Source: an uncultured Gemmatimonadaceae bacterium (GTDB lineage Bacteria > Gemmatimonadota > Gemmatimonadetes > Gemmatimonadales > Gemmatimonadaceae). Taken from it: a stretch of 64,000 nt of DNA. A program made the position numbers and the translations under genes. The notes beneath the pieces are model-generated. The model was not told the origin of the DNA and searched no databases. It worked only from the letters and a program-made list of their open reading frames with translations. This document shows, in pieces, positions 1 to 63,862 of the stretch (position 1 is the first letter of the stretch; each line of letters begins with the position of its first letter). The stretch lies in NCBI GenBank assembly GCA_963829055.1, contig CAWHHI010000004.1, positions 160,001 to 224,000 on the forward strand, in the 5' to 3' direction.

Positions 1-385
1 ACGGGAATTCGATGAACCGTTGCGGCGGCAGCGTGCCGGTCCAGATGGCCGCCGTGATCGCCTTTGCTGAATCCGTCACGATCTCGAGTTGCCAGCCGGG
101 AACGTCGGCGAACGACGTCACCCGCACGCCGGCGGGGAAGCGCAGCTCGACCTTCGTGGTGGCGACCGCTTTCTCGTTAGGGACGCGCAGCACGTAGCGC
201 TCGTACGCGCCCAGTGTGGATGTCTTGGGGAAGACCACCGCGTGCGCCCACGACAGGGTGGGCACCGCGACCACAGCGGCCACGAGCGTCGCTGCTGCCG
301 CGAGTGCAATCCGGCGACGACGCGTCCGCTTAGTACCGGCGCGAAGCGGCGAGAGTGAGGATGAGGACAAGGCGGTGCGTCTCAT
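1..385 (-). CDS. YcnI/DUF1775-family copper-binding exported protein (runs off window edge)
   Basis: ATG at 385 overlaps the copCD stop (ATGA). It reads signal peptide, then WAHAVVFP...ERYVLRVPNEKAVATTKVELRFP...DVPGW...IWTGTLP, typical of YcnI. Confidence 0.8.
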   Translation of the reverse strand, partial: MRRTALSSSSLSPLRAGTKRTRRRRIALAAAATLVAAVVAVPTLSWAHAVVFPKTSTLGAYERYVLRVPNEKAVATTKVELRFPAGVRVTSFADVPGWQLEIVTDSAKAITAAIWTGTLPPQRFIEFP

Positions 386-1725
386 GACGTGGATTGGTGA
401 GTGGTCATCGAGCCCTCGTCGCCCTCGCCGGGCGGAGGCACGTACGCCAGAAGCCCGCCGAGCAGGATGACGAGCGCCATGACGAAGATCTCGCGGGTGA
501 CCGAGGCACGGAGCGCAGCGCCGCCCGCGGCTGCGCTCGCCGCGATGCGCGGCATGAGGCGCTGCCGATTGTACGCGCCGAATCCAGCGAGCGCGAGCAG
601 CCCCGCCGTCTTCGCGAGCGCGAACAGGCCGTACGCCGACGTGACGAGGTCGCCCCACGATGGAAGAAAGAGGCGCGTCTGCACCACGCCAGTGAACGCG
701 ACCGCAACCACGGCGATCAATGCGCGGGATGACACGCGGTCGGCATCCCTGGCGAACAGTGGCGCGCTGTCGCCTGCCGGACGAACCACGAGCCATAACA
801 AGCCACCGAGCCACACGGCACTCGCCAGCAGGTGAATCGTCTTCGCCGGTATTGCCCACGCCGGTTGGATGGCCGCCGAATGCCCCGATGCCCCACTCAC
901 ACAGATCGCCGCGATCGCGAATACCAACGCGAGGCGAGGTCGGCGCGCGAGCCACCAGGCCCACAACGCCAGGATCGCCAGCCCTGTTCTCCAGAGCTCG
1001 ATCTTGCCGACGGTCGTGCTGAGCGCGGACCCGGCCCACTCCGTGTCGAACGTGTGCTCGGGCGAGGTGTTGATGAGCCACGCCACCGCGTGACCGGCGA
1101 GCAACACGGCGGCAGCGAATGTCAGTCCCGTGGTGAGCGCGCGGATGCGTCGATCGGCGGACTGCGCCGCGTTCGGGTCCGCCGTGGAGAGGAACAGCAG
1201 CATGCCTGCCGCCGCCATCAGCGCGCCGAGTGCGGTGCCGCGGATGAGCGCCGGTATGAGGGGCGCGCCGGCGACGGACGGGCCCCACACGTCGGGTTCT
1301 GGCTCCGCCTCGGTGACCGGTTCCGCCGGCGGAGGCGGCGGGGGAGCGGACTGCGCGCCTAACGTGGTATCGCCGACCGCGAACAGGAACGTCCCATCCA
1401 CCGGATGGCCGTCCGCTGACACGACCCGCCATTCCACGCGGTACCGCCCGGGCGCGAGCGAATCCACTGGCGCGATCACCGCGTGGACGTCGCGCGGGTC
1501 GGCGGCCGCGCGCAACACGATCGGTGCCCCGGCGCCAGGTACGAGCGTGACGCGCGCCAGCCCGCCCTCGACGGGCTCGCTGTAGACGAGCCGAACGCGG
1601 GTCGGAGTTGCCGCCAGATGGCTGTCTGCCGCCGGCTCCGAGGAAACGAGCGTTGCGTGCACCGCCGCGGACGACGGGGATATCAGCCCTCGGAGGGCCA
1701 GGAGTACGAGCAGGGCCAGGCGCAT
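382..1725 (-). CDS. Copper resistance CopC-CopD fusion protein
   Basis: Signal peptide, HATLVSSEP and WRVVSADGHPVDG (CopC), followed by a multi-TM CopD domain (SGHSAA, HLLASAVWLGGL). Confidence 0.92.
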   Translation of the reverse strand: MRLALLVLLALRGLISPSSAAVHATLVSSEPAADSHLAATPTRVRLVYSEPVEGGLARVTLVPGAGAPIVLRAAADPRDVHAVIAPVDSLAPGRYRVEWRVVSADGHPVDGTFLFAVGDTTLGAQSAPPPPPPAEPVTEAEPEPDVWGPSVAGAPLIPALIRGTALGALMAAAGMLLFLSTADPNAAQSADRRIRALTTGLTFAAAVLLAGHAVAWLINTSPEHTFDTEWAGSALSTTVGKIELWRTGLAILALWAWWLARRPRLALVFAIAAICVSGASGHSAAIQPAWAIPAKTIHLLASAVWLGGLLWLVVRPAGDSAPLFARDADRVSSRALIAVVAVAFTGVVQTRLFLPSWGDLVTSAYGLFALAKTAGLLALAGFGAYNRQRLMPRIAASAAAGGAALRASVTREIFVMALVILLGGLLAYVPPPGEGDEGSMTTHQSTS

Positions 1726-1843
1726 GTGCGCGAGAATCTATCGCGACGTCGGTGGGACGCTACTTCACAGAAAGAACAGTGCTCGGCTGGAACTTCCTTC
1801 CATATTAGAGGTTGTTTGGCAGTTGATCGCTGAATCCACTCTC

Positions 1844-2425
1844 GTGAGGTCGCTCGTGTCATTCGTGCGTTGTCCTGTCACGCTCGGCCCACTGGCATTC
1901 GCTGTGTCGCTGCTGCTCGCGTGCTCGAATCCGTCCGCCGGCCAGGGATACCCCGCCAGTCAGCGCGCGCGCGTCGATCAAACGGTTGCGTTCACCGATA
2001 TCTCCGTGATGTACGGACGTCCGGTCGCGCGCGGTCGCACGCTGTTCGGCGGCGACTCCGCGCTCGTGAAGTGGGACGACGTCTGGCACCCTGGCGCGGA
2101 CTCGGCCACTCGCGTGAGCTTCAGCCACGACGTGAAGCTCGAAGGCCACGACGTGAAGGCTGGAGAGTACTCGCTCTGGCTGATTCCGCGGGCGAACGCG
2201 CCGTGGACCGTGATCCTCAGCCGTGCCGCGCACGTCTTCCACAAGCCATACCCCGGTGAATCGTCCGACGCCTATCGCTTCGACGTCACGCCAGAGCGCG
2301 GCGCTCACATGGAAACGCTCGCGATCTATTTCCCCGTGGTCCTCCGCGATGATGCCGTGATGCGCGTTCACTGGGGTGAGGTGGTCGTGCCGATACGCAT
2401 CAAGGCGCCCTACCGGCCCGGCTGA
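1844..2425 (+). CDS. DUF2911-family exported protein
   Basis: YPASQRARVDQTV, YGRPVARGRTLFG, VWHPGADSAT, AGEYSLWLIP. Start codon uncertain. Confidence 0.8.
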   Translation: MRSLVSFVRCPVTLGPLAFAVSLLLACSNPSAGQGYPASQRARVDQTVAFTDISVMYGRPVARGRTLFGGDSALVKWDDVWHPGADSATRVSFSHDVKLEGHDVKAGEYSLWLIPRANAPWTVILSRAAHVFHKPYPGESSDAYRFDVTPERGAHMETLAIYFPVVLRDDAVMRVHWGEVVVPIRIKAPYRPG

Positions 2426-2479
2426 TCGACACCAACGCAAGGAAACCACGTAGGGCCCGACTCCCACGAGGAGCGAGCA

Positions 2480-4831: not shown

Positions 4832-5758
4832 CGCAACCAGTGCTGCAGCCAGTGCTGCAACCAGTTCTGCATTCGACGCCCCGACCGCGCGACGTGCTGC
4901 GTGAGCAGGTCCGCGCGTTAGGCATCGCGATCAAGCTGCCGGCCGTCGTGGCCGTCGCGTTGGCAGCATTGGCGACGATATTCGTCGCCTCGAGGCTGTT
5001 CGACGCGGGCAAGCCGATCGACTTCGCGCCCGAGCTCTCGATGCTGCCTGGGATCGTGGGACTGCTGCTCCCCATCGGCGTCTGGAGAGGGGAGGATCGC
5101 TTCGGGGCAGGCCTTCTGTGGACGCTCCCGGTGGACCGCCGCCACCACGCGCTCACCAGGGTCTGCGCTGGGTGGGTCTGGTTGATGGCCGCCGTCGCGC
5201 TCTTCGTCCTGTGGCTGTTCGCGATCACGCTCATCTCGGGCGGGAACGTCACCGCCGAGTCGACGATTCGCGTCCTTCCATCGTCGGTCGTGCCGGAGCC
5301 GGGCACATTGGATGCAGCGTCGCTCGAGAGCGTGCGATGGACGCCGCGGCCGTTACTGTGGCTCGTTCCCTTCACGTCGGCGACGGGCGCCTACCTGCTC
5401 GCCAGCGCGTTCGCGTTAGGGACGCGCCATCCGATTCGCTGGCTCGTTGGAGTCGTGCTCGCCTTCTTCGCGTTCCTTGGCTTCGCCGAGGCGGCGCACT
5501 CGCGGGTGCTCCTCCAAGGGGCGAATCGTGTGCTGGTGGCACTGCATGGACGGGCCGTACGGGATCGATGCGCTCCTCACCGCGCGGACCGAGTCGCTCC
5601 ACACCGAAGCAACCCTCTCCACCGGGGAAAAGGTGGGCGTGTGGCGCGGGCTCCCGGATCTCGGCCAATGGGTGAAAGCCACACTCCTCTGGACCAGCGT
5701 GGGCCTGGCGGCACTGTGGGCCGCGGCCTCCCGACACAGGGAGCGCCGGCGGGGCTGA
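4828..5758 (+). CDS. Membrane protein, putative ABC permease (frameshift near 5545)
   Basis: ATG overlaps the ATPase stop. Multiple TM segments continue into the 5447..5758 frame. Confidence 0.7.
4834..4871 (+). repeat. 3 x 12-bp tandem repeat (QPVL) at the permease N-terminus
   Basis: CAACCAGTGCTG CAGCCAGTGCTG CAACCAGTTCTG. Confidence 0.9.
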
Positions 5759-5856
5759 GTCCCCGTCTCTGATTCGCTATCTGATCACTCACTACATAAC
5801 GCGTTAGGCTACCAGGAGAGGCGCTTTTTTCGCCTCCCCTCACCCGGGGTGCACCT

Positions 5857-6795
5857 ATGGACCTGCAGATTCGCAACCTCTCGAAGACGTACGCGAACGG
5901 CGTGCATGCGCTGAACAACGTCACGCTCACCATCCCTCGCGGCATGTTCGGGCTGCTCGGCCCGAACGGCGCCGGAAAGTCCACGCTCATGCGAATTCTC
6001 GCCACGCTGCAGGAGCCGGACGAAGGCTCCATTCACCTCGGCGACCCATCGTTAGGCCCGGCGCATTCCATCGACGTGGTGCGCCAGAAGGAGCGCGTCC
6101 GCGAGACGCTCGGCTACCTGCCGCAGGAGTTCGGCGTCTACCCTAACGTGAGCGCGGAGCGGCTGCTGGAGCACTTCGCCGTGCTCAAGGGCATTACCGA
6201 GCGACGCGCACGCCGGGAGATCGTCGAGCGCGCTACTGCAGCAGACGAACCTGTACGAGGTGCGGAAGAAGAAGCTCGGCGGCTACTCGGGCGGAATGCG
6301 TCAGCGCTTCGGCGTCGCCGTCGCGCTGCTCGGCGATCCGAGGCTCATCATCGTCGACGAACCCACCGCCGGCCTCGACCCTGCGGAGCGCGTGCGCTTC
6401 CTGAATCTGCTCAGCGAGCTTGGCGAGAACACCGTGGTCATCCTGTCCACGCACATCGTCGAGGACGTGTCGGAGCTGTGCAACCGCATGGCGATCATCG
6501 ACCGCGGCAGGATTCTGCTGGAGGCCGAGCCGCAGCGCGCAGTGAGCGGAGCTGCGTGGGCGAATCTGGCGCAGGGTCGTTCCTCGAGCGGAGCTCGAGG
6601 GCCTCGAGCGCGAGCACGCCGTGATCTCGACCAAGCTGCTGGCCGGGCGCACGGTCGTTCACGTCTACAGCGACGTCTCGCCTGGCGCCGGCGTTCGACT
6701 CGGCGAGGCGGATCTGGAGGACGTCTACTTCAGCACGATGGCCGGCCACTTCGGCCGGCCGAGCGCAACAGCCGGTGCTGGAGGTGGCGTCATGA
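5857..6795 (+). CDS. ABC transporter ATP-binding protein (several frameshifts)
   Basis: GPNGAGKST in one frame, YSGGMRQR and IIVDEPT in the next, and ADLEDVYF in a third. Confidence 0.85.
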
Positions 6796-9700
6796 AGTTC
6801 CTCGAAGTGTTCCGTTTCGAGCTCGCCTATCAATCGCGCCGCGTCTCGACCTGGCTGTTCTTCGTGGTTCTCCTGGCAATCACGTTCCACCTCTCGCGCG
6901 AAGCTTTCATCGAGAAGGCGCACCGGGGCGGCTACTTCTTCAACTCCTCGACCCTCATCTCGGAGATCACGGTCCTTACGAGCTTGATGGCGCTGCTCGT
7001 ATCCGCAACGCTGGCGGGCGACGCGGCAGCGCGCGACGTGCAGACGCGGATGCATCCGCTCGTCTACACGACGCCGGTTGGCAAGGGTGCGTATCTGGGT
7101 GGTCGGTTCCTGGCGGCCTTCGTCCTGAACGCGCTGATCCTGCTTGCCGTGCCCATCGGCTCTCCTGCTCGCCACGCTCCTGCCGGTCCCGGCGCCCGAG
7201 GTCATCGGCCCGTTCCGGCCGGAGGCCTACCTCGGTGCCTATTTCTTCATCGCGGTGCCTAACGCATTCGTCGCCTCGGCGCTCGTGTTCTCCATGGCGG
7301 CCCTCAGCCGCCGCGCGATGGCGAGCTACCTCGGTGCCGTGCTCGTGTTCTTCGCGACCATACTGAGCTGGCTCACTCGTGGCCGAGCAGCATGGGACGG
7401 TGGGCGCTGGCGAAGCTGATCGACCCAATGGGCTCACCGTGCTGGTCGAGCTGTCACGGAGTTGGACGCCGTTCGAAAAGAGCACGCGGCTCGATCGGAC
7501 TGGAGGGCTCTCTCCTCTGGAATCGCCTCGTGTGGCTCGGCGTCGCCGTGGGCGTGCTCGCGCTCACTCACCTCCGCTTCCGTTTCGCGCACCATACGGC
7601 GCGCGGCTGGTGGAGCCGAGGGGTGCGACCTAACGACGCGCCACTCGTGCAGCCGGACTGCCGCCGAGCAGGCGCGCATCGGCGCGGCGGGCGCCCGATC
7701 GCGGCCCCGCGTGTCCGGCGCGCGTTCGGCGTCCGTACCCAGCTGCGCCAGATGCTCGCCGTCGCGTGGGAATCCTTTCGCGATATCGTCACGAGCTGGG
7801 GCGGGCTCGTGCTTGCCGCAATGACGGTGCTTCTGGTCGTGCACGGGGCCCGAGATCGCAAAACACCTGGGCATTCCGCTCTTCCCCACGACCGAGCAGT
7901 TCACCGGGTTCCTCGCTCAGTCGCAGGATCTCTTCTTCATGGTGGTCCCGCTACTCATCGTCTTCTATGCCGGCGAATTGGTCTGGCGGGAACGGGAGGC
8001 GTGGTCTGAGCGACATCGCGGACGCCGCGCCGGTGCAGGACTGGGTCCCGTTCGTCGGGCAAGTTCCTGGGGTTGAGCCTCGTGCTCGTCGTGCTGCAGG
8101 TGTTGATGATCACGGCGGCGATGACCACGCAGGCGCTCATGGGCTACTACGAGTTCGAGACTCGGCCTGTACGCGCGCGTCCTCCTCGGCATTCAGCTCG
8201 GCAACTTCCTTCTGCTCGCGGTGCTCGCCGTGCTCGTCCACGTGATCGTGGACCAGAAGTACGTCGGCCACATGATCGCGCTCGTCGCCTTCGGGTTCAT
8301 GACGTTCGCCCCGGCGCTCGGCATCGAGAACAATCTGTTCGTCTATGGCTCTGATCCCGGCTGGTCCTACTCGGACCTGAGCGGCTTCGGGGCGTCGCTC
8401 GCGCCGCTCGTGTGGTTCAAGCTCTATTGGGCGGCGTGGGCGCTGCTGCTCGCGGTGGCGGCGAAGCTGCTCTGGGTGCGCGGCAGGGAGGGGAGGTTGG
8501 GTCGCGACTTCGGCAGGCGCGTCGGCGGTTCACGCGTCCGATCATCGGCGCGGCGGTGACGGCAGCCGGACTCGTTCTGTCGTTAGGCGGCTTCGTGTTC
8601 TACAACACGAATGTCCTGAACGAGTACCGTACGCCTGCCGACTGGGTCGAAGCAGCGCGCCGACTACGAGCAGCGCTATGGGAAGTACAACGGCATCCCG
8701 CAGCCCACGATCACGGCCACCGACCTGCGCGTCGAGATCCATCCCACGCAGCGGGCGGCCGAGCTTCGCGGCACTTACCGCCTCGTGAACCGAACGGCGA
8801 CGGCGATCGATTCCGTCCATGTCGTCACCGATGCGGACGTCGAGACACGAGCACTCTGACCTTCGACCGGCCGGCCACGTGCGTGCTCGCGGATTCGCTG
8901 CTCGGTCATCGCATATACGCGCTGGAACGAACGGCTCGAGCCAGGCGATTCGCTGCAGCTCACGTTCGACGTGCGTTTCGCGCGACGCGGGTTTCCCAAC
9001 CGCGGCATCGATGAGTCGGTGGTGCCTAACGGGACGTTCTTCACGGCTCAAGATTGGCTTCCCGGCCATCGGCTATCAGACGGAGCCGCGAGCTGAGCAA
9101 CGCCGGAGATCGGCGAGCGAACGGGCTCGCCCCGCGCCCCGCTTTCCGCTCGCTCGACGACGTCGCGGCGCGCTGGGATGTGGAGGGCGCCGAGCGGGTG
9201 ATGGTCGATGCGATCGTCGGTACGGACGAGTGGCCAGGTCGCCGTCGCACCCGGCGCGTTGCGTCGCACGTGGACGGAAAACGGCCGCCAGTACTTTCAC
9301 TACGCGACCGACGCGCCAATCCGAAACGAGTACGCCTTCTACTCTGCCGCGTACGCTGTGCACGAAGCGCGTTGGAAGGACGTGGCCATCCAGATCGTGT
9401 ATCACCCGGGCCACGCGTGGAACGTGGATCGCATGGCCCGAAGCGTTCAGGCCTCCCTGGAGGAGTTCAGCAAGCGATTTGGCCCGTATCCGTATCGCGA
9501 GATCAGGCTCGTCGAGCACGTGGGTGAAGGGATCAGCCTTCACGCCCCGCCCATCAACATCTCGTACCAGGAGGGATTCTCCCTCCTGAATTCGAACGAG
9601 GACCCGCGCGACGTGGATTTCGCGTTCGCCGTGGTGGCGCACGAGGTGGCGCACCAGTGGTGGGGGGACCAGGTCACGCCCGCGCGAGTCGAGGGCGCCG

Positions 9701-10455
9701 CGCTCCTGTCCGAGAGCCTGGCGTGGTACTCGGCGATGTCGGTAGTGGAACGCACGTACGGCGCCAAGCATCTGGAGCGGTTCCTGGGAATACTGCGCGA
9801 AGCGTACCTAACGCCACAGTCGCGCGCTGGCGTTCCGCTGCTGCAGGCGTCCGACTGGTTCATGGCGTACCGCAAGGGGCCGTTCGCGATGTACGCGCTG
9901 CGCGAGTACGTCGGTGACGCACAGGTGACCACCGCCCTGCGGCGTCTCTTCGAGCAGCACCGCTCGGCGACACCTCCGCTGGCGACATCTCTCGATCTCT
10001 ATCGGGAGCTTCAGCTGGTCACGCCGGATTCGCTCCGGTATCTGCTCTCCGACCTGTTCGAATCGAATACCTACTGGCAGGTCGCGACGACGCAGGCATC
10101 GGCGGAGCAGGTCGAGGCAGGTAAGTGGCGAGTGACGCTCGACGTGAAGGCACGCAAGGTCGTCGTCGACACGATAGGCGTCGAGAAGGAAGTCTCGATG
10201 AACGACCTCGTCGAGATTGGTGTCTTCGGGCCGCCGAAGGACGGGGGGCCTGGCGAGCCGCTGTATCTGCGCATGCACCGCGTGCATTCCGGCGAGCAGC
10301 GCATCACCGTGACGGTGACGGGAAAGCCCGCGCGTGCCGGACTCGATCCGCGGAATCTGCTGATCGACGTCAACGGCGACGACAATCTTCAGGAGGTGAC
10401 TCTGTCAGCAATGAGATCAGCCGCGGACACCGGCGCGGCTCCGAATCGGCGTTAG
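6792..10455 (+). CDS. ABC-2 permease / M1-type zinc aminopeptidase fusion (multiple frameshifts)
   Basis: N-terminal multi-TM permease repeats (MKFLEVFRFE..., GRFLAAF). The C-terminal frame 9208..10455 has FGPYPY and HEVAHQWWG...LSESLA. Confidence 0.85.
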
Positions 10456-11578
10456 GCGATGCCGAGGAACGCCATCAACTCGGCGGCTGCGGCGCCGCCC
10501 GCGCGGTTCGCGCCGATGGTCGACGCGGACGGTCCGTAGCCGACGAGATGGATCCGTGGGTCTTTCGCGACCTGCGTCGCCAGCCTGCCGGTCATGACGA
10601 TGCCGCCGTCGGGCTCGCGGAGTAGCAGTGGCGCCAGATGATCGAGCGAGCTGCGGAAGCCGGTGCACCAGAGGATGACGTCGGCGTGCAGCGTGGTCCC
10701 GTCGTCCCAGCGGACGCCGTCCGTCGTGATCTCGCTGAACATCGGATGCCGGTTCAGAACCCCACGAGCACGCATGGCTTCGACCGCCGGTGTGAGCGGC
10801 AAGCCGGTGACCGAGACCACGGAGCTCGGCGGCAGTCCGCGTCGCACTCTGTCCTCCACGAGCGCGACCGCGGCGCGACCGGCAGCCTCATCGAACGGGC
10901 CGGTGCGGAATTCCGGCGGACGCCTCGTGGTCCACGTCGTCGTGGTGACGCGCGAGATCTCGTCGAGCAGCTGGATCGCCGAGATGCCGGCGCCGACGAT
11001 GATGACGTGCTTGCCCTACGAACTCCGCCGCCGACCGGTAGTCTCGCGTGTGCAGCTGGCGTCCCGCGAAGCGGTCCGCGCCCGGGTACTCCGGGATGTA
11101 CGGCGTCTCCCACGTACCCGTGGCGTTGATGATTCCGCGTGTCGAGACGGCGATGCGATCCGTCTCGACGTTCAGCCAGTCGCCGCGATCGCAGACGACG
11201 GTCACTTTCACCGGGCGATAGACGGGCAGGTCGAACGCCTTCTCGTACGCGGCGAAGTAGCGCGGCACCGCGACGGCGGCTTCGACTTCCGTCGCGGCGG
11301 TGTCGATCGCGTCGGAGAAGGGCATCCCGGGCAGGTCGTGAATGCGGTTGACGGTGCTCAGGGTCAGCGACGGCCAGCGGAACTGCCAGGCTCCGCCCGG
11401 CGTTAGGCGACTGGTCCAGCACGACGAAGCCGCGGTTCGGCACCAGGCCACGCCGTTTGAGATGGTAGGCCGAGGACAGGCCCGCCTGGCCGGCGCCGAT
11501 GACGACGATGTCGGTCTTGAGGCGCGCGCCGGACGCGGGCGCGTGCGTCGCGTCGGGCTCAGGCGGGCGTGTGGACAT
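10452..11578 (-). CDS. FAD/NAD(P)-dependent oxidoreductase, FMO/CzcO-like (frameshifted)
   Basis: VVIGAGQAGLS, PGGAWQFRWPSL, INATGTW, LHTRDYRS, WCTGFR, GYGPSASTIGANRAG. Confidence 0.85.
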
Positions 11579-13692: not shown

Positions 13693-13744
13693 GTCCCCGC
13701 GGCCCCATCGCAGTAAGGGACGTTAGGCGCTCGTGTTGCGGAGC

Positions 13745-51752: not shown

Positions 51753-51849
51753 GGCGGTCGCTCCGGAGACGTGGACGGCTCGGGGTCGCGGCCGATCGAC
51801 GATCGCGGTCAGCCGTGCGACGATGATCGCCTAACGCCGACGTCCGCGC

Positions 51850-53679: not shown

Positions 53680-54087
53680 ATGCCCTACTTGATCGGAATC
53701 GTGCTGGCCCTCGCCGTCTCGGTGTACGCGACCGCGCTCCGGCTCGATCGGGATCGCGCGTTCTACCCGACCGTGCTCGTCGTGGTCGCCTCCTACTACG
53801 TGCTGTTCGCGGCCATGGGAGGCTCAGGCCGCGTGATCGTCGTCGAGTCGCTCATCATGGGTGTCTTCGTCCTGGCCGCGTCGGTCGGCTTCCGGCGAAG
53901 CCTCTGGCTCGTCGTCGCGGCGCTCGCCGCGCACGGCGTGCAGGACTTCTTCCACGCGAGGCTCGTCGCGAATCCCGGCGTGCCCGCCTGGTGGCCGGCG
54001 TTCTGTCTGAGCTACGACGTCGCTGCCGCCGGCTACCTGGCGTGGCGCCTAACGCAGAATCCGGCCCGGCGTGTGCCGGTCGCCTAA
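53680..54087 (+). CDS. Hypothetical membrane protein
   Basis: AGGAG RBS, several TM segments, AHGVQDFFH and PAWWPAFC. Confidence 0.75.
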   Translation: MPYLIGIVLALAVSVYATALRLDRDRAFYPTVLVVVASYYVLFAAMGGSGRVIVVESLIMGVFVLAASVGFRRSLWLVVAALAAHGVQDFFHARLVANPGVPAWWPAFCLSYDVAAAGYLAWRLTQNPARRVPVA

Positions 54088-54150
54088 CGCAGGTCCAGCC
54101 ATCCTCCGCAAGGAATCATGTCCACGATGAAGCGAGTGCCGGGACTGGCG

Positions 54151-56127: not shown

Positions 56128-57978
56128 ATGCGACAGACAGTGCGGTCCGCCGTCGCGCGCCGCGGCAGGGAGACGGTCGCCTGGCTCGCCATCGGCGGAA
56201 CGCTGGCGGCGATGTTCCTCACGGCGTATCAGGTGCGTCAGGGCTGGGCGCAGCGACGCCTCGCCGCGGAGCAGGCCGTGCGCGACCAGCCTGACGACCG
56301 CCGCGGTCCTCATCGGCACCGAGGCAGCGAGGATGAGTGCGCTCGAGCTGCGCGCGCTCCTCTGGCCGGCGCTCGCCACGAACGCATCGCCCGAGCTCGC
56401 GCCCGCTCACGCTCGACGAGTTCGCGGGCGCCGGCGCGGAGCAGTTCGCCGCCATGCACGACGATCGCGGCGCCGCGCGGCCGGGTTACTTCCGCCTCGC
56501 GCGGAATGGCCGCGGTGAGTGGACGCCCGAGCTGCGCGGCGCGCTCGCCACCGACTCCGTGTACGCGCGCGCGGTGCTCGACGAGGTCCGTCGCTGTACC
56601 GATCACGTCGACGTCGACAGGCGCGGAGCGCGCATCGTCATCCTCTACCCGAACGTGCGGGGTCTGCCGTTCGTCGTCGGCATGGCGCCGGAGCGCGGGG
56701 CCGACAGGCGCGTGGTCGCCCTGTTCGGCGTCGCGTACGCGCGCACCGCGGCGCTCCGCACGCACGTCGGGCACGTGCTGCACGGGATCTCGCTGCTGCC
56801 GGCGCCCTCGGGCGAACCGAGCGACGGCACCCGTCGTTCCGAATCGGGGCAGGCTCCCCGCCCTGGCGCCAGAGTGGACAACGCGGGCCTCGCCGTGCGT
56901 CTTCGGTACGCGACCGGTTTCCGCGACGCCATCTCCCCCGCCGCGGCCGACGACGCCGTCTGGCGCTCCGGGTTCGTCGCCGCGCGCGGCGTCCCGGGCC
57001 TGGACGGCGGGTTCATCGTCGAGGTGGCGGTGCCGGAGCACGTCGGCCGGCGCTACGTGGAGGCCGCGACGCCGTTAGGCGGCGAGCGGCTGATGCTCGG
57101 CGGCGTGCTGCTTCCTCGGCCTCGGGTTCGCCGCGGCCGCGGCGCTCGGGCTGCGGCGACAGTACAAGCTCGCCGAGGCGCGCAGGACGTTCGTTGCCGC
57201 GGTGTCGCACGAGCTCCGCACGCCGCTCGCCCACGTGAACGCGCTGAGCGAGACGCTGCTGCTCGGGCGCGCGGAGTCGCCGGAGCAGGCGCAGCGCTGG
57301 CTCCGCGCGATCCACCGCGAGGGCCGGCGCCTCAGCGTGCTCACGGAGAACGTCCTGCTGCACGCGCGTGGCGAGCGACGCGGCGTTCGCGCGGCCCCAC
57401 AGTGGACGGATGTCGGCGCGGTCGTCCGCGACGCGGTCAGCCTCGTCGAGGCGCAGGCGCAGGCACGCTCGGCGCGCATCGTCATCGCCGGCACGGCGGT
57501 GGAAGGCACGGTGGGTGACGCTGGCGCCTGGATCGACGCGGCCGCCGTGCGACAGATCGTCATCAACTTCATCGAGAACGCACTGAAGTTCGGCCCCGAC
57601 GGCCAGACGGTGACGGTCACGCTCGACCTCGAGCGCGCGGAGTTTTCCGGCCGCGCGGAGGGTCTGCTGCGTCTGAGCGTCGACGACGAAGGGCCGGGCG
57701 TCCCGCCCGACGATCGCGACCGCATCTGGCAGCCTTTCGTGCGGCTTGCGGAAGGCGGGAGCGCGCCAGCAGGCACGGGCCTGGGCTTGAGCGTCGTGCG
57801 ACAGCTGGTCGCGGAGCTCGGCGGACGGTGGTCGGTGTTCGACGCACCAGGGCGCGGCGCGCGATTCCGCGTCGAGCTGCCGCTCGCCGCGCCGCCTCCT
57901 CAAGTCGTCGAGCGCGCGACGGAGCATTCGACGTCGTCGCTGGCGCAGAGACAGAGGTTCGCCGCGAACGGGCGTTGA
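56128..57978 (+). CDS. Sensor histidine kinase (frameshifted)
   Basis: N-terminal TM, VSHELRTPL, NFIENALKF, DDEGPG, GTGLGL. Confidence 0.87.
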
Positions 57979-58056: not shown

Positions 58057-59169
58057 TTACGGAATAAACAGCCAGGCGGCGTTTCGCGCGGCGGTTCCAT
58101 TTCCGTACCCGCCCACAATGAGCACGTGCCCGTTCTCCAGGCGCGTCGCCGTCGAAAAGTTGGCAGCAAGCGCGTTCGACGATGACACCAGCGTAAAGCG
58201 CGCGGTCACTGGGTCGAACAGCTCGGGATCGCCTGCTCCGCCAGCAACAAGAATTCGGCCGTCGACCAGCGGTGTCATCGTCCCTTGATGTTTGTACCGC
58301 GCTCGGCGCAGCTCGCCCGCACTGGAAAAGCGTTCGCTCTGGGGGTCGTAGATCTCTGCATCGCGATACTGACCACGGTCGTCGCGCTCGTCGGAGCCGC
58401 CCGTAATGAGCACCCTCCCATCGGGGAGAATCGCCGCCGCGTGCTTATGCCTTGGCCGAGTCATCGACCCGGTCGTGCGGAATGCGCCTTGTTCCGGATC
58501 GTACAGCTCTGCGCCGTCGTACAGCCGGATCGATTCACGACGACCCGCGTGCCCGCCGGCAATGAGTACGCGCCCGTTAGGCAGAAGTGCTCCCACGTGC
58601 GATTCACGTGCAACGGACATGGCGCCGGTGCGCGTGAATCGCATCGTGGCAGGATCGAACACTTCTGCCGAGGCGAGGAACGAATAGCCGGTGCTGGTTC
58701 CGCCGACGAATAACACGCGTCGATCGCGCAGCGGTATCGCGAGGTGATCGCTGCGTGGCTCGGTGAGGTCAGGACCGCGCGTGAACGTTCCTGAGGCAGG
58801 GTCGTAAATCTCAGTGCTCGCGAGCCACGTTCCATCGTAGCCGCCCGCGATGAGCACTCGACCATCGGGAAGGGACGTCGCCGTATGTCCACCGCGCGCA
58901 CGAAGCAACCCTTGCGTCGGTAGGAAGCGTCTCGTTCCAGGGTCGAAGATCTCTGCGGTGGCGGACGCGTCGGAACCACTTCCGCCAGCAACGAGAACGC
59001 GACCGTCTGGAAGCGGCGTGGCTGTGTGAGCAAAACGGGCAACGCGCATTGGCGGCAGTGCCACGAGCGATGCGGAACCGGGGCCGGTGTCAGCGGTCGG
59101 TTCCATCGCAACACCACAGGCGAGAACGAGTGAGCCCAGCGCAACACGTCGCAGCACGACCGATCCCAT
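58057..59169 (-). CDS. Kelch/galactose-oxidase-like beta-propeller exported protein
   Basis: About 7 repeats of R..H.AT.LPDGRVLxAGG...AEIYDP, with a signal-like N-terminus. Confidence 0.9.
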   Translation of the reverse strand: MGSVVLRRVALGSLVLACGVAMEPTADTGPGSASLVALPPMRVARFAHTATPLPDGRVLVAGGSGSDASATAEIFDPGTRRFLPTQGLLRARGGHTATSLPDGRVLIAGGYDGTWLASTEIYDPASGTFTRGPDLTEPRSDHLAIPLRDRRVLFVGGTSTGYSFLASAEVFDPATMRFTRTGAMSVARESHVGALLPNGRVLIAGGHAGRRESIRLYDGAELYDPEQGAFRTTGSMTRPRHKHAAAILPDGRVLITGGSDERDDRGQYRDAEIYDPQSERFSSAGELRRARYKHQGTMTPLVDGRILVAGGAGDPELFDPVTARFTLVSSSNALAANFSTATRLENGHVLIVGGYGNGTAARNAAWLFIP

Positions 59170-61550: not shown

Positions 61551-61899
61551 CGTGGAGGGCCGCACGCGGACGGAATCGTCGGCCGCCTAACGCGCCCAGG
61601 CACGTGCTTCGGACGGTGCCACTTGTGTTCGCCACTCTCTTACGTTCACCCCGATCTTCGTGCGTCGGCGCGGCGGTTGGCCCCAATCGTATCGCTCGTT
61701 GAAGAGCGCGGCCCCGCGTTCCGGTCGCCGCGGGAGCCGGATCATTGACGAACTCGACGACGTCGCAGCCAGGATGGTCGATTCGATAGTATGGGACTCA
61801 GACGATCGCAGTCAGCGCCCGGAACGCGTTGAGTCGAAGCGGTGCGCGAAATTCTTGTGCCGCCGCGTGCACGCTCGTCATATCGCTTCTTGACGCCGC

Positions 61900-63048
61900 T
61901 CAAGAGGTCGCGCTCGGCACGAAGGCAGGGAAAACGGGTGCGGCGGGTTCCGAGATCAGCGACACTGCAGACTCGTACACCCGCATCGGAAACTCGCTCG
62001 CCACTGCTCGCGTCGCCGCACGGATTGCCGGGAGCGCCACATCGCCCTTCTCACGGCTGAGGAAGCTACGCCAATGCGTGGGGTAATAGCGGACGAGCAT
62101 CCCGGTCACGTACGCAATCGCGAACAGGAGCGATAGCGTCGTGAGCGCGATGCCGCCACGGAGGGGCTCTCGGATGAATATCATGTCCCGTGATAGCACC
62201 GAGTCGCCCGCTGCGTTTATCCAACGGGCGGAAGGATCTCAGGCAGCGAGCGATCGGGTGTGGTCGGGAGGATGCGTTTCCATCGGTGCCAATGGTAGGT
62301 CGTCCAGCCAGTGTCAGGCGTTATCTGCGCGTTAGGCGGCAACCGGAACGCTGTTCGTATCCAGGAATCGGTTTCGCCCGGCCGCTGGTCGACGATCAGC
62401 GCGCATCCGCTCGAAGCCAACGCTCCGTCGGTAGGGTACACTGGACCGTGGTCATGAAGGTACATCGCCCGGAGGGCCGACGCTTGACCGAAGGCGTCGA
62501 GGTACGCGTCGACGATCTCTGTCAGGCGGGCGAGCAACTCCCGCGCACTAAATGCAAATCCCTGCGGCAGCGGCGCCGGCGTGGAGCTGCTGGCGCCAGC
62601 GAAACTCTCGGTCCGCGTCGTAGCAATGAAAGGTTATGGCCTCCCGTCCGCCGGTGGCTTCAATGAGCTGCGTGAACGTTCCTCGAGTGACGCGGGTCTC
62701 CGTGTCAGCGAACGCTCTTATGCCTCGAGCCAAGGTCTCATCCCAGTTGTGCGCGTCGAGGCCGTGTTGCTTCGCGAGCGACGCTTCGCGGATGCCCCGC
62801 AACCGGAACAGGATGAGCCAGCGTGCGAGCCCGAGCACCCCATAGTATAGCAGCAGGGGCCGCACAAGCTCGTTGGCGTTCCCGGCCGAGGCGAAGTACT
62901 CGCGCGCCTGAGTCAGCGCCGACGTCATTTCGCGAGCCTTCTCGGCACCAGGCTCGCGCCCGTGGACCTCGGCATACAGCCGCGACACGACATCGCGGCT
63001 CTCATAACTCTCAGGCAGTTCCCACGCAGGACTAAGGGCGTTAGGCAT
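61900..63048 (-). CDS. YaaC-like protein (frameshifted or decaying)
   Basis: QAREYF...RPLLLYYGVLGLA...HGL near the N-terminus and AYVTGMLVRYYPTHW near the C-terminus, split over three ORFs. Confidence 0.7.
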
Positions 63049-63166
63049 AGATTCGTTTGCGGCGTACCGCGAGCCCAACAAGGGCCCGGGTTGCCGCGTA
63101 CACTACTGACCTGGCAGACGCCGGTAGAGTCGCCTGCCACCACCACTCACGAGCCGTCACTGTCAT

Positions 63167-63705
63167 ATGGCCAAGAAATTCAAACCCCCCGACCGGTGAG
63201 AACGCATTCGGAACTCTGTGCCGGACTCGGACACGTCATCTACAATGCGTTACTCCTCGCTCTGAGCCTCCAAGTTTGGCGGGACCGTGGCACGTTCGAC
63301 GGCAGAGTGACCGGCACAGATTTCAATCGCGAGCGCCAGATCGCGCTCGAACTAATGGTGGTGAAGTGCCGTACGTTCAATGATTTCCTCATGTCGAACA
63401 TCAAATTCGAAAAGGACATGGTTGCCTCAGAGTTTACCTATGTCCCGAGCGGTCGCTACACGGAGCTCCTGCACAGTTTTAGGGATGCTGTGAACACCCG
63501 TACGGCTCACCTTTCGTGGACCCGAGTCGAGTCGTTGTCGTTGACGAACTATGACAAGCTGGACGCTGGAGTTGAGAAACTCTCTCTCGACGCACTCGAA
63601 GAAATAGACCATTTCCTTCAAGACGCTGTAACCCGCTTCACGCTCTCCATGGAGGATGACGCGTTTTGGCAAGCCTTCCAACGCGAGTACTCGAAAGTGG
63701 TGTAG
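63167..63705 (+). CDS. Hypothetical protein, possible HEPN-like nuclease (probable indel in the C run at 63185-63190)
   Basis: ATG at 63167 (MAKKFKP) joins the long ORF if one C is added. Contains KCRTFNDFL and RDAVNTRTAHLSW. AT-richer codon usage than the host genes. Confidence 0.55.
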
Positions 63706-63862
63706 CTCGATCCGGTCAAGACTACAACTTGTTAGGCAAGCGACGGCCGGTTTTTGGCGGCGGCAAGATCTGGATCACCGTTTGTCCGGTGTTCGCGAGA
63801 CACGATTTGACGGCTCGCGGGAACCCCCCCCCCGCGTCGCTCTCGAGTGTTCCTTGGTCCGC

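What the first reader, a model, noticed from the sequence alone, without database searches (positions are those of the whole stretch)
175..63737. Highly iterated non-palindromic octamer CGTTAGGC/GCCTAACG across the whole window
Seen: by eye I count about 50 exact copies and about 69 copies of the core GTTAGG/CCTAAC, roughly one per kb. Examples lie near 1357, 4916, 6050, 8581, 10450, 13104, 16692, 21828, 26469, 31498, 35971, 40703, 44795, 50233, 57073 and 62330. Base composition alone (about 69% GC assumed) predicts only 2-3 octamers. The two orientations are about equal (about 37 vs 32 cores). Inside genes it is read in several frames (TTA-GGC Leu-Gly, CCT-AAC Pro-Asn, CGC-CTA-ACG Arg-Leu-Thr, GTT-AGG Val-Arg), forcing codons that are otherwise rare here, so the constraint is on DNA rather than protein. 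It also supplies stop codons (both convergent stops at 10452-10455, plus 18711, 37072 and 54085). Established: comparable genome-wide words are cyanobacterial HIP1 (palindromic), Neisseria/Pasteurellaceae DNA uptake sequences (non-palindromic, unskewed) and Chi/KOPS (strand-skewed). Inference: this is a DUS-like uptake signal, a methyltransferase/repair-driven word, or a nucleoid-protein site. I know of no description of it in this lineage.
Basis: partly seen in the sequence, partly recalled or inferred. Interest (0 to 1): 0.85.

Follow-up and report, generated by a model that had tools for sequence, protein, structure and literature searches.

The report
Genome-wide integron-core DNA word CGTTAGGC
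This soil bacterium and about a third of its family have written one eight-letter DNA word, the same word that ends their integron gene cassettes, thousands of times through ordinary genes against their own codon habits, much like the DNA-uptake tags of Neisseria and Haemophilus, and what reads the word is still unknown.

Summary
The window holds 53 exact CGTTAGGC copies against 0.93 expected. The genome, a 7.8 Mb Gemmatimonadaceae MAG, holds 5004, 38-49 times a low-order Markov expectation.

- **Not an artefact.** Short-read relatives and the finished Gemmatirosa kalamazoonensis plasmids carry it. A 50 kb foreign segment in the same assembly has none.
- **Pressure on DNA, not protein.** 3393 copies lie inside genes, against about 165 after synonymous shuffling. 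23% of all protein-neutral opportunities are occupied, 58% in the Pro-Asn frame.
- **Sites are kept.** 49 of 81 are identical in a species at 78% identity, against 18% for control octamers.
- **Copies interfere.** Occupancy is 3-4% within 100 bp of another copy and about 30% at 300-1500 bp.
- **No strand skew, hairpin or conserved flanks**.
- **Methylation is disfavoured**.
- **New link.** The word equals the R' core of this order's integron attC sites.

Best reading: a DUS/USS-like uptake or recombination tag (about 0.4). Rivals are a nucleoid-protein site and IntI half-sites. I found no published description.

The parts
1357..1364 (-). octamer copy; in CDS 382-1725(-), read ACG-TTA-GGC (TLG)
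4916..4923 (+). octamer copy; in CDS 4828-5772(+), read GCG-TTA-GGC (ALG)
5802..5809 (+). octamer copy; no gene called here
6050..6057 (+). octamer copy; no gene called here
7257..7264 (-). octamer copy; supplies the TAA stop of CDS 6621-7262(+)
8581..8588 (+). octamer copy; no gene called here
9024..9031 (-). octamer copy; no gene called here
10450..10457 (+). octamer copy; supplies both convergent stops: TAG of CDS 9208-10455(+) and TAA of CDS 10452-10859(-)
11401..11408 (+). octamer copy; in CDS 10888-11451(-), read CGC-CTA-ACG (RLT)
12937..12944 (-). octamer copy; in beta-lactamase-family CDS 11687-13660(+), read ACG-CCT-AAC-GCG (TPNA)
13104..13111 (+). octamer copy; in the same CDS, read CCG-TTA-GGC (PLG)
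13721..13728 (+). octamer copy; no gene called here
16692..16699 (-). octamer copy; in solute-binding protein CDS 15635-16963(+), read CGC-CTA-ACG (RLT)
18969..18976 (-). octamer copy; in TonB-receptor fragment CDS 18875-19858(+), read TGC-CTA-ACG (CLT)
20031..20038 (-). octamer copy; in the frameshifted TonB-receptor region (weak call 19983-20270(-))
21828..21835 (+). octamer copy; no gene called here
22776..22783 (-). octamer copy; no gene called here (split GH65 region)
23736..23743 (+). octamer copy; in CDS 23206-23922(+), read GGC-GTT-AGG-CGC (GVRR)
24268..24275 (-). octamer copy; overlaps the stop of weak call 24270-24527(-)
24679..24686 (-). octamer copy; no gene called here
25610..25617 (+). 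octamer copy; in CDS 24778-26451(+), read GCG-TTA-GGC (ALG)
26469..26476 (+). octamer copy; in MalK-type ABC ATPase CDS 26461-27543(+), read GGC-GTT-AGG-CTC (GVRL)
28228..28235 (-). octamer copy; in CDS 27586-28302(-), read GCG-TTA-GGC (ALG)
29353..29360 (+). octamer copy; in AraC-family CDS 28863-29891(+), read CCG-TTA-GGC (PLG)
29907..29914 (+). octamer copy; intergenic between convergent genes
31498..31505 (-). octamer copy; in beta-lactamase-family CDS 30917-32386(+), read GTG-CCT-AAC-GCG (VPNA)
32785..32792 (+). octamer copy; in CDS 32411-33433(-), read ACG-CCT-AAC-GGC (TPNG)
32971..32978 (+). octamer copy; in the same CDS, read ACG-CCT-AAC-GAT (TPND)
35971..35978 (-). octamer copy; in MscS-type channel CDS 34913-36346(+), read GTG-CCT-AAC-GGG (VPNG)
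36163..36170 (+). octamer copy; in the same CDS, read CGC-GTT-AGG-CGA (RVRR)
38091..38098 (-). octamer copy; in outer-membrane efflux protein CDS 37649-38638(+), read CGC-CTA-ACG (RLT); shared with G005, not G002, G009 or G007
38678..38685 (+). octamer copy; in HlyD-type CDS 38616-39764(+), read GAC-GTT-AGG-CCG (DVRP); shared with G005
39014..39021 (-). octamer copy; in the same CDS, read GTG-CCT-AAC-GAA (VPNE); G005 and G002 have the one-off ACCTAACG, G009 has GCCGAACG
39819..39826 (-). octamer copy; shared by G000, G005 and G002; absent in G009 and G007
40703..40710 (-). octamer copy; in AcrB CDS 40294-43173(+), read CGC-CTA-ACG (RLT); specific to G000
42318..42325 (+). octamer copy; in AcrB, GTC-GTT-AGG-CTC (VVRL); G009 has GTC-GTG-CGC-CTC for the same peptide (3 synonymous changes)
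42881..42888 (+). octamer copy; in AcrB, ACG-TTA-GGC (TLG); shared by G000, G005 and G002
44795..44802 (+). octamer copy; no gene called here (split outer-membrane barrel gene region)
45313..45320 (-). octamer copy; no gene called here
46854..46861 (-). octamer copy; no gene called here
49624..49631 (+). octamer copy; no gene called here
50232..50239 (+). octamer copy; in AraC-family CDS 49711-50565(-), read GTG-CCT-AAC-GAC (VPND)
50319..50326 (+). octamer copy; in the same CDS, read TCG-CCT-AAC-GCC (SPNA)
51829..51836 (-). octamer copy; intergenic
52092..52099 (-). octamer copy; in AraC-family CDS 51925-52599(-), read TAC-GTT-AGG-CGT (YVRR)
54047..54054 (-). octamer copy; in CDS 53680-54087(+), read CGC-CTA-ACG (RLT); 35 bp from the next copy, one of the rare close pairs
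54082..54089 (-). octamer copy; supplies the TAA stop of CDS 53680-54087(+)
57073..57080 (+). octamer copy; no gene called here
58575..58582 (+). octamer copy; in Kelch-repeat CDS 58057-58857(-), read CTG-CCT-AAC-GGG (LPNG)
61585..61592 (-). octamer copy; no gene called here
62330..62337 (+). octamer copy; no gene called here (between the two YaaC fragments)
63039..63046 (+). octamer copy; in YaaC-like fragment CDS 62548-63081(-), read ATG-CCT-AAC-GCC (MPNA)
176..63736 (.). 16 further GTTAGG cores whose end letters differ from the octamer (for example 176, 4043, 5415, 18709, 20435, 63731); the end positions of the word are soft

Best explanation
CGTTAGGC is a lineage-specific 'self word' kept in the DNA itself at about one copy per 1.5 kb. 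The process that keeps it acts on stretches of DNA rather than on single sites.

Most likely mechanism. I read it as an uptake or recombination tag of the DUS/USS kind. A component of the type IV pilus / ComEC / DprA transformation route, still unidentified, would bind the duplex word. Fragments carrying it would be imported and recombined preferentially. Alleles that gain the word would then spread, by molecular drive with or without selection, and alleles that lose it would be replaced. A second copy within about 300 bp would add nothing, so close neighbours stay rare. Copies would settle where proteins tolerate them: synonymous rare codons, stop codons and spacers.

Integron link. The word is also the R' core, with its 5' C, of this order's integron attC sites. 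That would also explain why all lineages use the same word.

Shown here:
- the enrichment, its independence of coding frame, and neutrality for the protein at 15 of 27 aligned sites (12 differ);
- positional conservation of sites;
- interference between neighbouring copies;
- absence from foreign DNA;
- lack of strand skew;
- identity to the attC core;
- presence of transformation genes.

Inferred, not shown: that any protein binds the word, that uptake is biased, and that drive rather than per-site selection maintains it.
For: Abundance.
- 5004 copies in 7.78 Mb, 2547 forward and 2457 reverse.
- O/E is 38-49 under order-1 and order-2 Markov models, and it is the top-ranked octamer by O/E.
- It is a sharp 8-mer with uninformative flanks.

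Placement.
- My crude gene calls place 3363 copies in coding sequence, 1227 in intergenic sequence and 414 at gene boundaries; density is 0.55 per kb coding and 0.72 per kb non-coding.
- 250 of 937 TAA stops and 198 of 1944 TAG stops lie inside the word.
- 3393 copies in CDS, against 155-172 after synonymous shuffling.
- 3113 of 13,644 protein-neutral opportunities are occupied; in the Pro-Asn frame 863 of 1488.
- Of 27 aligned CDS sites, 15 are amino-acid identical to word-free relatives, including 5 of 5 in the rpoB region.

Conservation. G000 sites identical in a relative, against control octamers in the same alignments:
- G005: 49 of 81, control 0.18-0.19.
- G001: 9 of 18.
- G004: 10 of 28.
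- G014, another genus: 8 of 17, control 0.14.
- G021: 4 of 10, control 0.09.
- Word-free G009: 0 of 26. Word-free G017: 0 of 5.

Interference.
- Pair correlation is 0.22 at 0-100 bp, 0.45 at 100-200 bp, 0.77 at 200-300 bp, and about 1 beyond 500 bp.
- Occupancy of opportunities is 0.034-0.039 within 100 bp of another copy and 0.26-0.32 at 300-1500 bp.
- This is replicated in 450 kb of the finished Gemmatirosa plasmid 1: 29 pairs under 300 bp against 62 expected.

Foreign DNA. The 49.6 kb stretch without any copy carries second copies of housekeeping genes at 47-54% amino-acid identity to the genome's own. Occupancy is 0.025 where the nearest copy is more than 5 kb away.

Transformation genes. 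ComEC, DprA and three PilT genes score over their cut-offs. A PilQ-like secretin scores 258 bits, under the 284-bit cut-off.

Known DUS and USS for comparison. H. influenzae has 1471 USS cores in 1.83 Mb, 65% of them in ORFs (PMC2817400, passages). DUS are highly conserved, sit in permissive positions, are absent from recently acquired genes, and are spaced like conversion fragments (PMC2397512, abstract and passages).

Integron link. In G027 arrays located through the L' box, 31 of 37 attC sites that contain GTTA end in CGTTAGGC (arrays shown).
Against: - Natural transformation has not been shown in this phylum, to my knowledge (recalled). My searches returned no paper on it (listing only).
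- ComEC, DprA, PilT, the PilQ-like secretin and a ComEA-like HHH_3 protein occur equally in word-poor members of genus g59. Gene content therefore does not track the word.
- No ComEA family match was found in G000. G000 is 85.9% complete and frameshifted.
- There are no lineage dialects, unlike DUS and USS. The same octamer is the top word in G014, G005, G001, G004, G090, G049, G456 (another family) and Gemmatirosa.
- There are no inverted-pair terminators as in Neisseria.
- Peptide frequencies are barely shifted: Pro-Asn over Asn-Pro is 1.13, against 0.99 in word-poor relatives. USS, in contrast, roughly doubled the frequencies of their encodable tripeptides.
- No receptor candidate was found.
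- The same statistics fit a spaced protein-binding site.
Confidence: 0.4

Rival explanations
1. The word is the binding site of an abundant sequence-specific chromosome protein, for example a nucleoid-organising, condensin-loading or segregation-type factor. Each site would be under weak selection, and one site per few hundred bp would suffice.
For: - Positional conservation of sites.
- Short-range interference and an even spread: 28-40 copies per 50 kb in Gemmatirosa plasmid 1.
- No orientation preference.
- Present at the same density on the megaplasmids.
- Absent from foreign DNA.
- HIP1 has been given a similar structural reading because of its quasi-periodic spacing (PMC13756078, passages).
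Against: - No candidate protein was found.
- About 5000 sites would each need selection strong enough to hold rare TTA, AGG and CTA codons in genes such as rpoB.
- It gives no reason for the identity with the integron core.
- It gives no reason for the patchy distribution across three families.
Confidence: 0.25
2. The copies are half-sites (R boxes) for the integron integrase IntI or a relative. As duplex DNA, the word has the same sequence as the folded R box of G000's own attC sites. The chromosome would then be studded with docking or attG-like sites, or with decoys for the recombinase.
For: - The word matches the attC R' consensus of the order at 8 of 8 positions.
- G000's own attC-like sites near intI carry the word on both arms.
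- GTTRRRY and RYYYAAC define cassette boundaries (PMC3053210, passages).
- IntI can insert cassettes at double-stranded genomic attG sites (bioRxiv 10.1101/2022.09.11.507474, passages).
- The same word in all lineages fits a conserved anchor.
Against: - IntI over its cut-off occurs in 24 of 41 relatives, word-rich and word-poor alike. It was not found over cut-off in word-rich G002 and G004, and only fragments were found in G014.
- There is no second (L) box, conserved flank or hairpin.
- attC-like paired arrangements number 37 loci against 25 in the control arrangement.
- Synteny breakpoints carry the word in 10 of 29 junctions against 8.1 expected.
- Positions A4, G5 and G6 are as strict as GTT, unlike the loose GTTRRRY.
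- Insertion sites inside genes would be harmful.
Confidence: 0.15
3. The word is the by-product of a methyltransferase- or repair-linked mutational bias, of the HIP1 or very-short-patch type. Near-words would be converted into the word without any function for the copies themselves.
For: - Most core one-off variants are at or below expectation, O/E 0.2-0.8.
- HIP1 is tied to two methylases (PMC13756078, abstract).
Against: - The SMRT methylome of Gemmatirosa reports only RGATCY, ATGCAC and CCAGN7TCA (PMC3974934, whole text). Its plasmids carry the word at 0.4-0.7 per kb.
- No C5-methyltransferase (PF00145) match in G000 or G070, but matches in word-poor G128 and G305.
- A context-driven mutation bias would not make copies avoid each other.
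- It would not conserve sites three-fold above control octamers.
- The low one-off O/E values are partly an effect of the word inflating the trinucleotide counts of the null model.
Confidence: 0.07
4. The enrichment is a technical artefact of this long-read metagenome assembly.
For: G000 has indel-type errors. rpoB is split into two frames. A TonB receptor, a GH65 gene and YaaC are split within the window.
Against: - Six same-genus genomes with 260-1170 contigs carry 2501-5112 copies.
- The finished PacBio genome of a cultured strain carries it.
- A foreign 50 kb stretch within the same assembly has none.
- 20 runs from 17 studies hold 0.2-0.54 of the sampled words of window 36001-46000. This is not verified at the sites themselves.
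Confidence: 0.01

Closest known systems
DNA uptake sequences: DUS of Neisseriaceae and USS of Pasteurellaceae
   Same: - A short non-palindromic word at roughly 1 per kb on both strands equally.
- Found inside genes in several frames and in spacers, in permissive positions.
- Highly conserved in place.
- Missing from recently acquired DNA.
- Spacing that avoids redundancy.
   Evidence: compared with PMC2817400 and PMC2397512 (passages).
   Different: - 8 letters rather than 9-12.
- No extended flanking motif.
- No inverted-pair terminators.
- No dialects across three families.
- Almost no shift in peptide frequencies.
- Uptake bias and receptor are unknown.
- The host phylum has no demonstrated competence (recalled).
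- The word equals an integron core site.
HIP1 (GCGATCGC) of cyanobacteria
   Same: An octamer that is hyper-abundant, conserved in coding and non-coding DNA, and spaced non-randomly. HIP1 was recently proposed as a broadly used uptake tag (PMC13756078, abstract and passages).
   Different: HIP1 is palindromic and is the target of two methylases. This word is non-palindromic and no methylation of it is on record.
Integron attC and attI core site (GTTRRRY, inverse core RYYYAAC)
   Same: The letters are identical to the R' box, with its 5' C, of attC sites in Gemmatimonadales cassette arrays. The definitions come from PMC3053210.
   Different: The genome-wide copies are single. They lack an inverse core partner, an internal palindrome, an array structure or a neighbouring intI. 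They arise by point substitutions inside conserved genes.
Chi and KOPS/AIMS polar words
   Same: Over-represented non-palindromic octamers read by DNA-processing machines.
   Different: Those are strongly co-oriented with replication. Here orientation is binomial across 145 windows of 50 kb (chi-square 152.5, 145 df). Counts are 453 against 406 in windows of positive GC skew and 640 against 659 in windows of negative GC skew.

Membership tests
DNA uptake sequences (DUS/USS) | Short word hyper-abundant (about 1 per kb), equal on both strands | tested here: met
   5004 copies in 7.78 Mb, 2547 forward and 2457 reverse, O/E 38-49. No skew.
DNA uptake sequences (DUS/USS) | Copies conserved in place above background, sitting in permissive positions | tested here: met
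   49 of 81 sites identical in G005, against 0.18 for control octamers. Copies use synonymous codons, stop codons and spacers.
DNA uptake sequences (DUS/USS) | Missing from recently acquired or foreign DNA | tested here: met
   The 49.6 kb copy-free segment carries duplicates of housekeeping genes at 47-54% identity. Occupancy is 0.025 where the nearest copy is more than 5 kb away.
DNA uptake sequences (DUS/USS) | Spacing tied to the size of recombined fragments | tested here: inconclusive
   Short-range interference below about 300 bp is shown. Conversion-tract sizes were not measured.
DNA uptake sequences (DUS/USS) | Cells preferentially take up DNA that carries the word | not testable with these tools
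   Needs uptake or transformation assays, for example in Gemmatirosa kalamazoonensis KBS708.
DNA uptake sequences (DUS/USS) | Transformation machinery present, with a specific receptor (ComP-type minor pilin in Neisseriaceae; recalled) | tested here: inconclusive
   ComEC, DprA and PilT score over cut-off and a PilQ-like secretin is just under. All are also present in word-poor g59 genomes. ComEA was not detected in G000. No receptor was sought or found.
DNA uptake sequences (DUS/USS) | Lineage-specific variants (dialects) among related taxa | tested here: not met
   The same octamer is the top word in samples of G014, G005, G001, G004, G090, G049, G456 and Gemmatirosa.
HIP1-type iterated palindromes | Palindromic word containing a methyltransferase target that is methylated | tested here: not met
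   The word is not a palindrome. The Gemmatirosa methylome lists three other motifs. PF00145 was not found in G000 or G070. 5mC and other marks were not directly tested.
Chi / KOPS polar sequences | Strand bias co-oriented with replication | tested here: not met
   Spearman rho with GC skew is 0.15 (p 0.06). Orientation counts fit a binomial. Orientation runs number 2415 against about 2521 expected.
Integron attC sites | Core site GTTRRRY at the cassette boundary | tested here: met
   The word contains GTTAGGC and equals the R' consensus of local arrays, 31 of 37.
Integron attC sites | Inverse core RYYYAAC partner 57-141 bp away with an imperfect internal palindrome; same-strand arrays beside intI | tested here: not met
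   37 paired loci against 25 in the control arrangement. MFE is -18.1 against -17.5 kcal/mol for controls. Orientation is random. Only a handful of true attC-like sites lie at C20:119-206 kb.
REP / MITE-type dispersed repeats | Conserved sequence beyond the core; mostly intergenic | tested here: not met
   Flanking information is at most 0.13 bit per position. Two thirds of the copies lie inside gene calls.

The most novel reading that the evidence does not exclude
The word is an 'integron-core uptake tag'. A DNA-uptake receptor of these Gemmatimonadaceae would have taken the conserved attC core as its recognition sequence. Competent cells would then preferentially import cassette arrays and kin DNA. 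Molecular drive would have copied the same word thousands of times into their own genes.

This links natural transformation, integron cassette capture and genome-wide word accumulation in one system. It would also explain why distant lineages all use the identical word.
Probability: 0.15. Interest if true: 0.92.

Novelty: new variant of a known kind. Interest (0 to 1): 0.8.

Why it matters
- Sequence-specific DNA uptake is established in only two proteobacterial families. HIP1 remains debated after three decades.
- Here an abundant soil phylum shows the same genomic signature at full strength.
It would also give a direct route by which soil bacteria enrich for cassette DNA.
- The word has practical uses either way. 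It flags foreign or mis-binned DNA in these MAGs, as the 50 kb segment here shows. It also distorts codon statistics: 56% of all TTA codons are followed by GGC.

Tried and rejected
- **Assembly artefact.** Rejected; see the rival explanations.
- **Laying public reads on the window.** The motif sites therefore remain unverified in raw reads or in the independent contigs of the 20 runs found.
- **Replication skew of the Chi or KOPS kind.** Rejected.
- **Dispersed repeat element.** Rejected, because the flanks are uninformative.
- **Hidden attC sites.** Rejected.
- **Recombination sites at rearrangement breakpoints.** 10 of 29 junctions carry the word against 8.1 expected; colinear gaps carry it in 7 of 36 against 9.1. 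There is no signal, and the sample is small with fuzzy BLAST ends.
- **Dialects in genomes of intermediate density.** None seen in 78-131 kb samples. The samples of G020, G040 and G036 (5-17 kb) were too small to say.
- **Driver gene by contrast within genus g59 (G070 rich; G128, G283 and G305 poor).**
  - ComEC, ComEA-like, DprA, PilQ-like, PilT and IntI do not separate the rich genome from the poor ones. DprA was found in G070, G128 and G283 but not in G305 (88% complete).
  - PF00145 is found only in two poor genomes.
  - These 'congeners' are about 80% identical in the pilT region, no closer than G000 is to G070 at 78%. The contrast is therefore not a recent one.
- **A 104-residue IntI N-terminal remnant at C4:2850-3281.** Considered as a stand-alone reader. 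It looks like a truncated pseudogene and was dropped.
- **Proteome distortion as seen for USS.** Not seen.
- **First RpoB tree.** Nine rows used a wrong ORF. It was replaced by the FastTree, which has no support values.
- **Gene calls.** They come from my own crude caller (78% coding). 'Intergenic' therefore includes missed and frameshifted genes.
- **Accession guesses.** Two guesses for the 21 kb Gemmatirosa element were not in the collection.

Full report
**Observation**

The window holds 53 exact copies of CGTTAGGC, 28 on + and 25 on -. One hundred dinucleotide-preserving shuffles give a mean of 0.93 and a maximum of 3. It also holds 69 GTTAGG cores, 37 on + and 32 on -, against 6.8 expected. 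Window GC is 67.5%.

The window is C4:160001-224000 of a 7,784,024-base genome in 20 contigs, 66.7% GC. Genome-wide there are 5004 copies, 2547 forward and 2457 reverse. That makes it the 14th most frequent octamer despite its three A/T letters. The expected count is 131 under an order-1 Markov model, 102 under order 2 and 258 under order 3. It is the top octamer by observed/expected. Models of order 4-6 reproduce the count only because they contain the word's own sub-words.

The flanks carry at most 0.13 bit per position, so this is a sharp 8-mer. One-off variants are enriched only at the two end positions and for one internal change:
- TGTTAGGC, 14.8 times expectation;
- CGTTAGGT, 17 times;
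- CGTTAGGG, 9 times;
- CGTTATGC, 7.7 times.

All other core variants are at 0.2-0.8, except CGTCAGGC at 2.1.

**Organism and data quality**

An RpoB fragment of the genome has its best matches, at 82-86% identity, in Gemmatimonadaceae MAGs. The assembly is 85.9% complete and has indel-type breaks. rpoB is split into two frames. A TonB-dependent receptor, a GH65 hydrolase, an outer-membrane barrel gene and a YaaC-like gene are split within the window.

This raised the artefact question, which independent data answer:
- The six other genomes of the genus have 260-1170 contigs and 2501-5112 copies. G014, of another genus, has 300 contigs and 6360 copies.
- The finished PacBio genome of the cultured type strain Gemmatirosa kalamazoonensis KBS708 carries the word. 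Plasmid 1 has 30 copies in its first 50 kb against 0.79 expected. Plasmid 2 has 20 against 0.59. The first 450 kb of plasmid 1 have 306 copies.
- Twenty public runs from 17 studies (rhizosphere, soil, sediment) hold 0.2-0.54 of the sampled 31-mers of window 36001-46000.

**The pressure is on DNA, not protein**

With my own crude gene caller (7543 calls, 78% coding), 3363 copies lie in genes, 414 span a gene end and 1227 lie outside calls. The density is 0.55 per kb coding and 0.72 per kb non-coding.

All four frames without a stop are used:
- NCG-TTA-GGC, 1340 copies;
- NNG-CCT-AAC-G, 943;
- NGC-CTA-ACG, 615;
- NNC-GTT-AGG-C, 465.

Shuffling synonymous codons within each gene leaves 155-172 copies, against 3393 observed. 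Shuffling whole codons leaves 76-79. Of all TTA codons, 56% are followed by GGC, and 1405 of 3619 Pro-Asn dipeptides are written CCT-AAC. Stop codons are used as well: 250 of 937 TAA stops sit in GCC-TAA-CG and 198 of 1944 TAG stops sit in CGT-TAG-GC.

I then counted every place where the protein would allow the word without any amino-acid change. Of these, 3113 of 13,644 are occupied (23%), and 863 of 1488 in the Pro-Asn frame. I aligned 27 CDS sites to word-free relatives (26 distinct sites; one is listed twice). Of these, 15 encode the same amino acids, including all 5 in the rpoB region. Examples are CTC-GGC changed to TTA-GGC and GTG-CGC changed to GTT-AGG. The other 12 differ. Dipeptide frequencies are hardly shifted: Pro-Asn over Asn-Pro is 1.13, against 0.99 in word-poor relatives.

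**Sites are kept**

I aligned sampled contigs of relatives to the genome and asked how many G000 sites are identical in each relative. Control figures are for other octamers in the same alignments.

| Relative | Nucleotide identity | G000 sites identical | Control octamers |
|---|---|---|---|
| G005 | 78% | 49 of 81 | 0.18-0.19 |
| G001 | 76.8% | 9 of 18 | 0.17-0.18 |
| G004 | 78.8% | 10 of 28 | 0.22 |
| G002 | 78.4% | 3 of 7 | 0.18-0.20 |
| G014 (another genus) | 73.8% | 8 of 17 | 0.14 |
| G021 | 71.8% | 4 of 10 | 0.09 |
| G009 (word-free) | 72.3% | 0 of 26 | 0.12 |
| G017 (word-free) | 77.9% | 0 of 5 | 0.20-0.21 |

The efflux operon in the window shows both shared and species-specific sites.

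**Copies interfere with each other**

Gaps under 100 bp number 71 against 316 expected. Gaps of 100-200 bp number 144 against 296. The pair correlation is 0.22, 0.45 and 0.77 in the first three 100-bp bins, and about 1 beyond 500 bp. The relative orientation of the two copies has no effect.

The effect holds after controlling for opportunity. Occupancy of protein-neutral positions depends on the distance to the nearest other copy:
- 0.034-0.039 within 100 bp;
- 0.11 at 100-200 bp;
- 0.19 at 200-300 bp;
- 0.26-0.32 at 300-1500 bp;
- 0.025 beyond 5 kb.

Gemmatirosa plasmid 1 repeats the short-range pattern, with 29 pairs under 300 bp against 62 expected. Its counts per 50 kb are very even, at 28-40. 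A context-dependent mutation bias would not produce this. A process in which one copy per stretch suffices would.

**What it is not**

- *Not strand-polar.* Orientation is binomial over 145 windows of 50 kb and does not follow GC skew.
- *Not hairpin-associated.* No hairpin accompanies the copies.
- *Not attC-like.* Paired arrangements number 37 loci against 25 in the control arrangement.
- *Not linked to rearrangements.* Synteny breakpoints are not enriched for the word.
- *Probably not methylation-driven.* The Gemmatirosa genome paper, read in full, reports three m6A motifs (RGATCY, ATGCAC, CCAGN7TCA) and does not mention the word. The C5-methyltransferase family was not found in word-rich G000 and G070, but was found in word-poor G128 and G305.

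**Foreign DNA lacks the word**

The largest copy-free stretch is C6:5440-55037, at 70% GC. It encodes phosphoglucomutase, chorismate synthase, tryptophan synthase, DAHP synthase, an M17 peptidase and FtsK. Several of these (chorismate synthase, tryptophan synthase, DAHP synthase, the M17 peptidase and FtsK) have second copies elsewhere in the genome at 47-54% amino-acid identity. It is therefore a mis-joined or imported segment from another organism.

**The integron link**

In relatives with few copies, the matches cluster on one strand about 550 bp apart. These clusters are not giant genes or tandem repeats. They are cassette arrays with canonical attC sites of the form GCCTAAC-...-CGTTAGGC. 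I located attC sites through their L' box, independently of the word. Of the 37 that contain GTTA, 31 end in exactly CGTTAGGC. GTTRRRY and RYYYAAC are the published core and inverse core sites (PMC3053210, passages).

G000 has an integrase gene at C20:208008-208985 and a few attC-like sites with the word on both arms. The integrase itself does not track the word. It scores over its cut-off in 24 of 41 relatives of both kinds.

**Distribution**

In 301 family genomes, about 93 by my hand count of the table have 300 or more copies, and the maximum is 7821 in 6.1 Mb. Many genera have fewer than 50. In 251 genomes of the phylum, enrichment outside the family appears in one f2 genus, with 181-1061 copies. 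The 81 genomes of families f4-f12 have at most 70.

An RpoB FastTree places the genus next to G014, G020 and G021, with word-free G017 and G011 outside. It places the f3 carriers at the base of their family (no support values). In every rich or intermediate genome sampled, the same octamer is the top word, so there are no dialects.

Rows for unpublished genomes enter the tallies only, and no conclusion rests on them. They are G013; G055, G056, G154, G268, G286 and G313; and G353, G380 and G449.

**Mechanism**

The anatomy matches that reported for DUS and USS (PMC2817400 and PMC2397512, abstracts and passages). ComEC, DprA, three PilT genes and a PilQ-like secretin are present. I therefore commit, at about 0.4, to an uptake or recombination tag that spreads by biased import.

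Several points count against it:
- The same genes occur in word-poor relatives.
- No ComEA match was found in G000.
- There are no dialects.
- There is no peptide enrichment.
- No receptor is known.

A spaced chromosome-protein site (0.25) and IntI half-sites (0.15) remain open.

**Literature**

The octamer search returned 478 papers. The 20 listed are unrelated hits such as primers and telomere repeats. No listed paper joins Gemmatimonadetes with uptake sequences, octamers or attC in this sense.

**Earlier notes of this scan**

I looked these up only after my own analysis. They report the same word, the DUS likeness and the integron core in other genomes. They are not independent evidence.

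Noticed in passing
G000 C6:5440-55037 (outside the window): A 49.6 kb stretch with no copy of the word. It carries housekeeping genes, several of which (chorismate synthase, tryptophan synthase, DAHP synthase, an M17 peptidase, FtsK) have second copies elsewhere in the genome at 47-54% amino-acid identity, and a D5_N primase-like gene sits at its left end. It is probably a chimeric join or mis-binned DNA, or else a large import.
   Followed up: partly
G000 C19:47991-52509; window 18875-21326, 22017-23198, 43767-46680, 61900-63081: rpoB is split into two frames. Several window genes (TonB receptor, GH65, outer-membrane barrel, YaaC-like) are in pieces. This looks like indel errors of a long-read assembly, which lowers completeness and gene-call quality.
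   Followed up: partly
L185/L186 (G027:C95:1-26000), L188, L189, L187 (G025:C3): Sedentary chromosomal integron arrays in word-poor Gemmatimonadales. There are 24 or more cassettes of about 500-650 bp on one strand, with about 100 bp attC sites of two sequence types. An integrase fragment lies at G027:C80:6419-7148.
   Followed up: partly
G000 C20:119262-208985: An integron integrase gene (265.7 bits, just over the cut-off), with only seven attC-like sites spread over about 90 kb. Beside the integrase there is also a run of eight same-strand copies of the word. This is an unusually loose or decayed array.
   Followed up: partly
G000 C4:2850-3281: A 104-residue N-terminal remnant of an integron integrase followed by stop codons. 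A similar fragment lies at a contig end of G002.
   Followed up: partly
genome-wide: CGTTATGC (G to T at position 5) has 583 copies, 7.7 times expectation. Every other change at core positions 1-6 is at or below expectation except CGTCAGGC (2.1). This is unexplained. In Gemmatirosa plasmid 1, neither this variant nor CGTTAGGT stands out.
   Followed up: no
L170-L172 (G021:C3:1-60000): A different word family, GCGGGAAGCG-like (GGGAAGCG 29 copies against 4.9 expected), is the top enriched octamer in this word-poor relative.
   Followed up: no
G000 C16, about 500 kb: GC skew changes sign from positive to negative. This is a candidate replication origin or terminus.
   Followed up: no
genus g59 and g58 rows: Within single GTDB genera, some species have about 4000 copies and others fewer than 70: G070 against G128, G283 and G305; G069 against G304. 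The g59 members are, however, only about 80% identical in the pilT region.
   Followed up: partly
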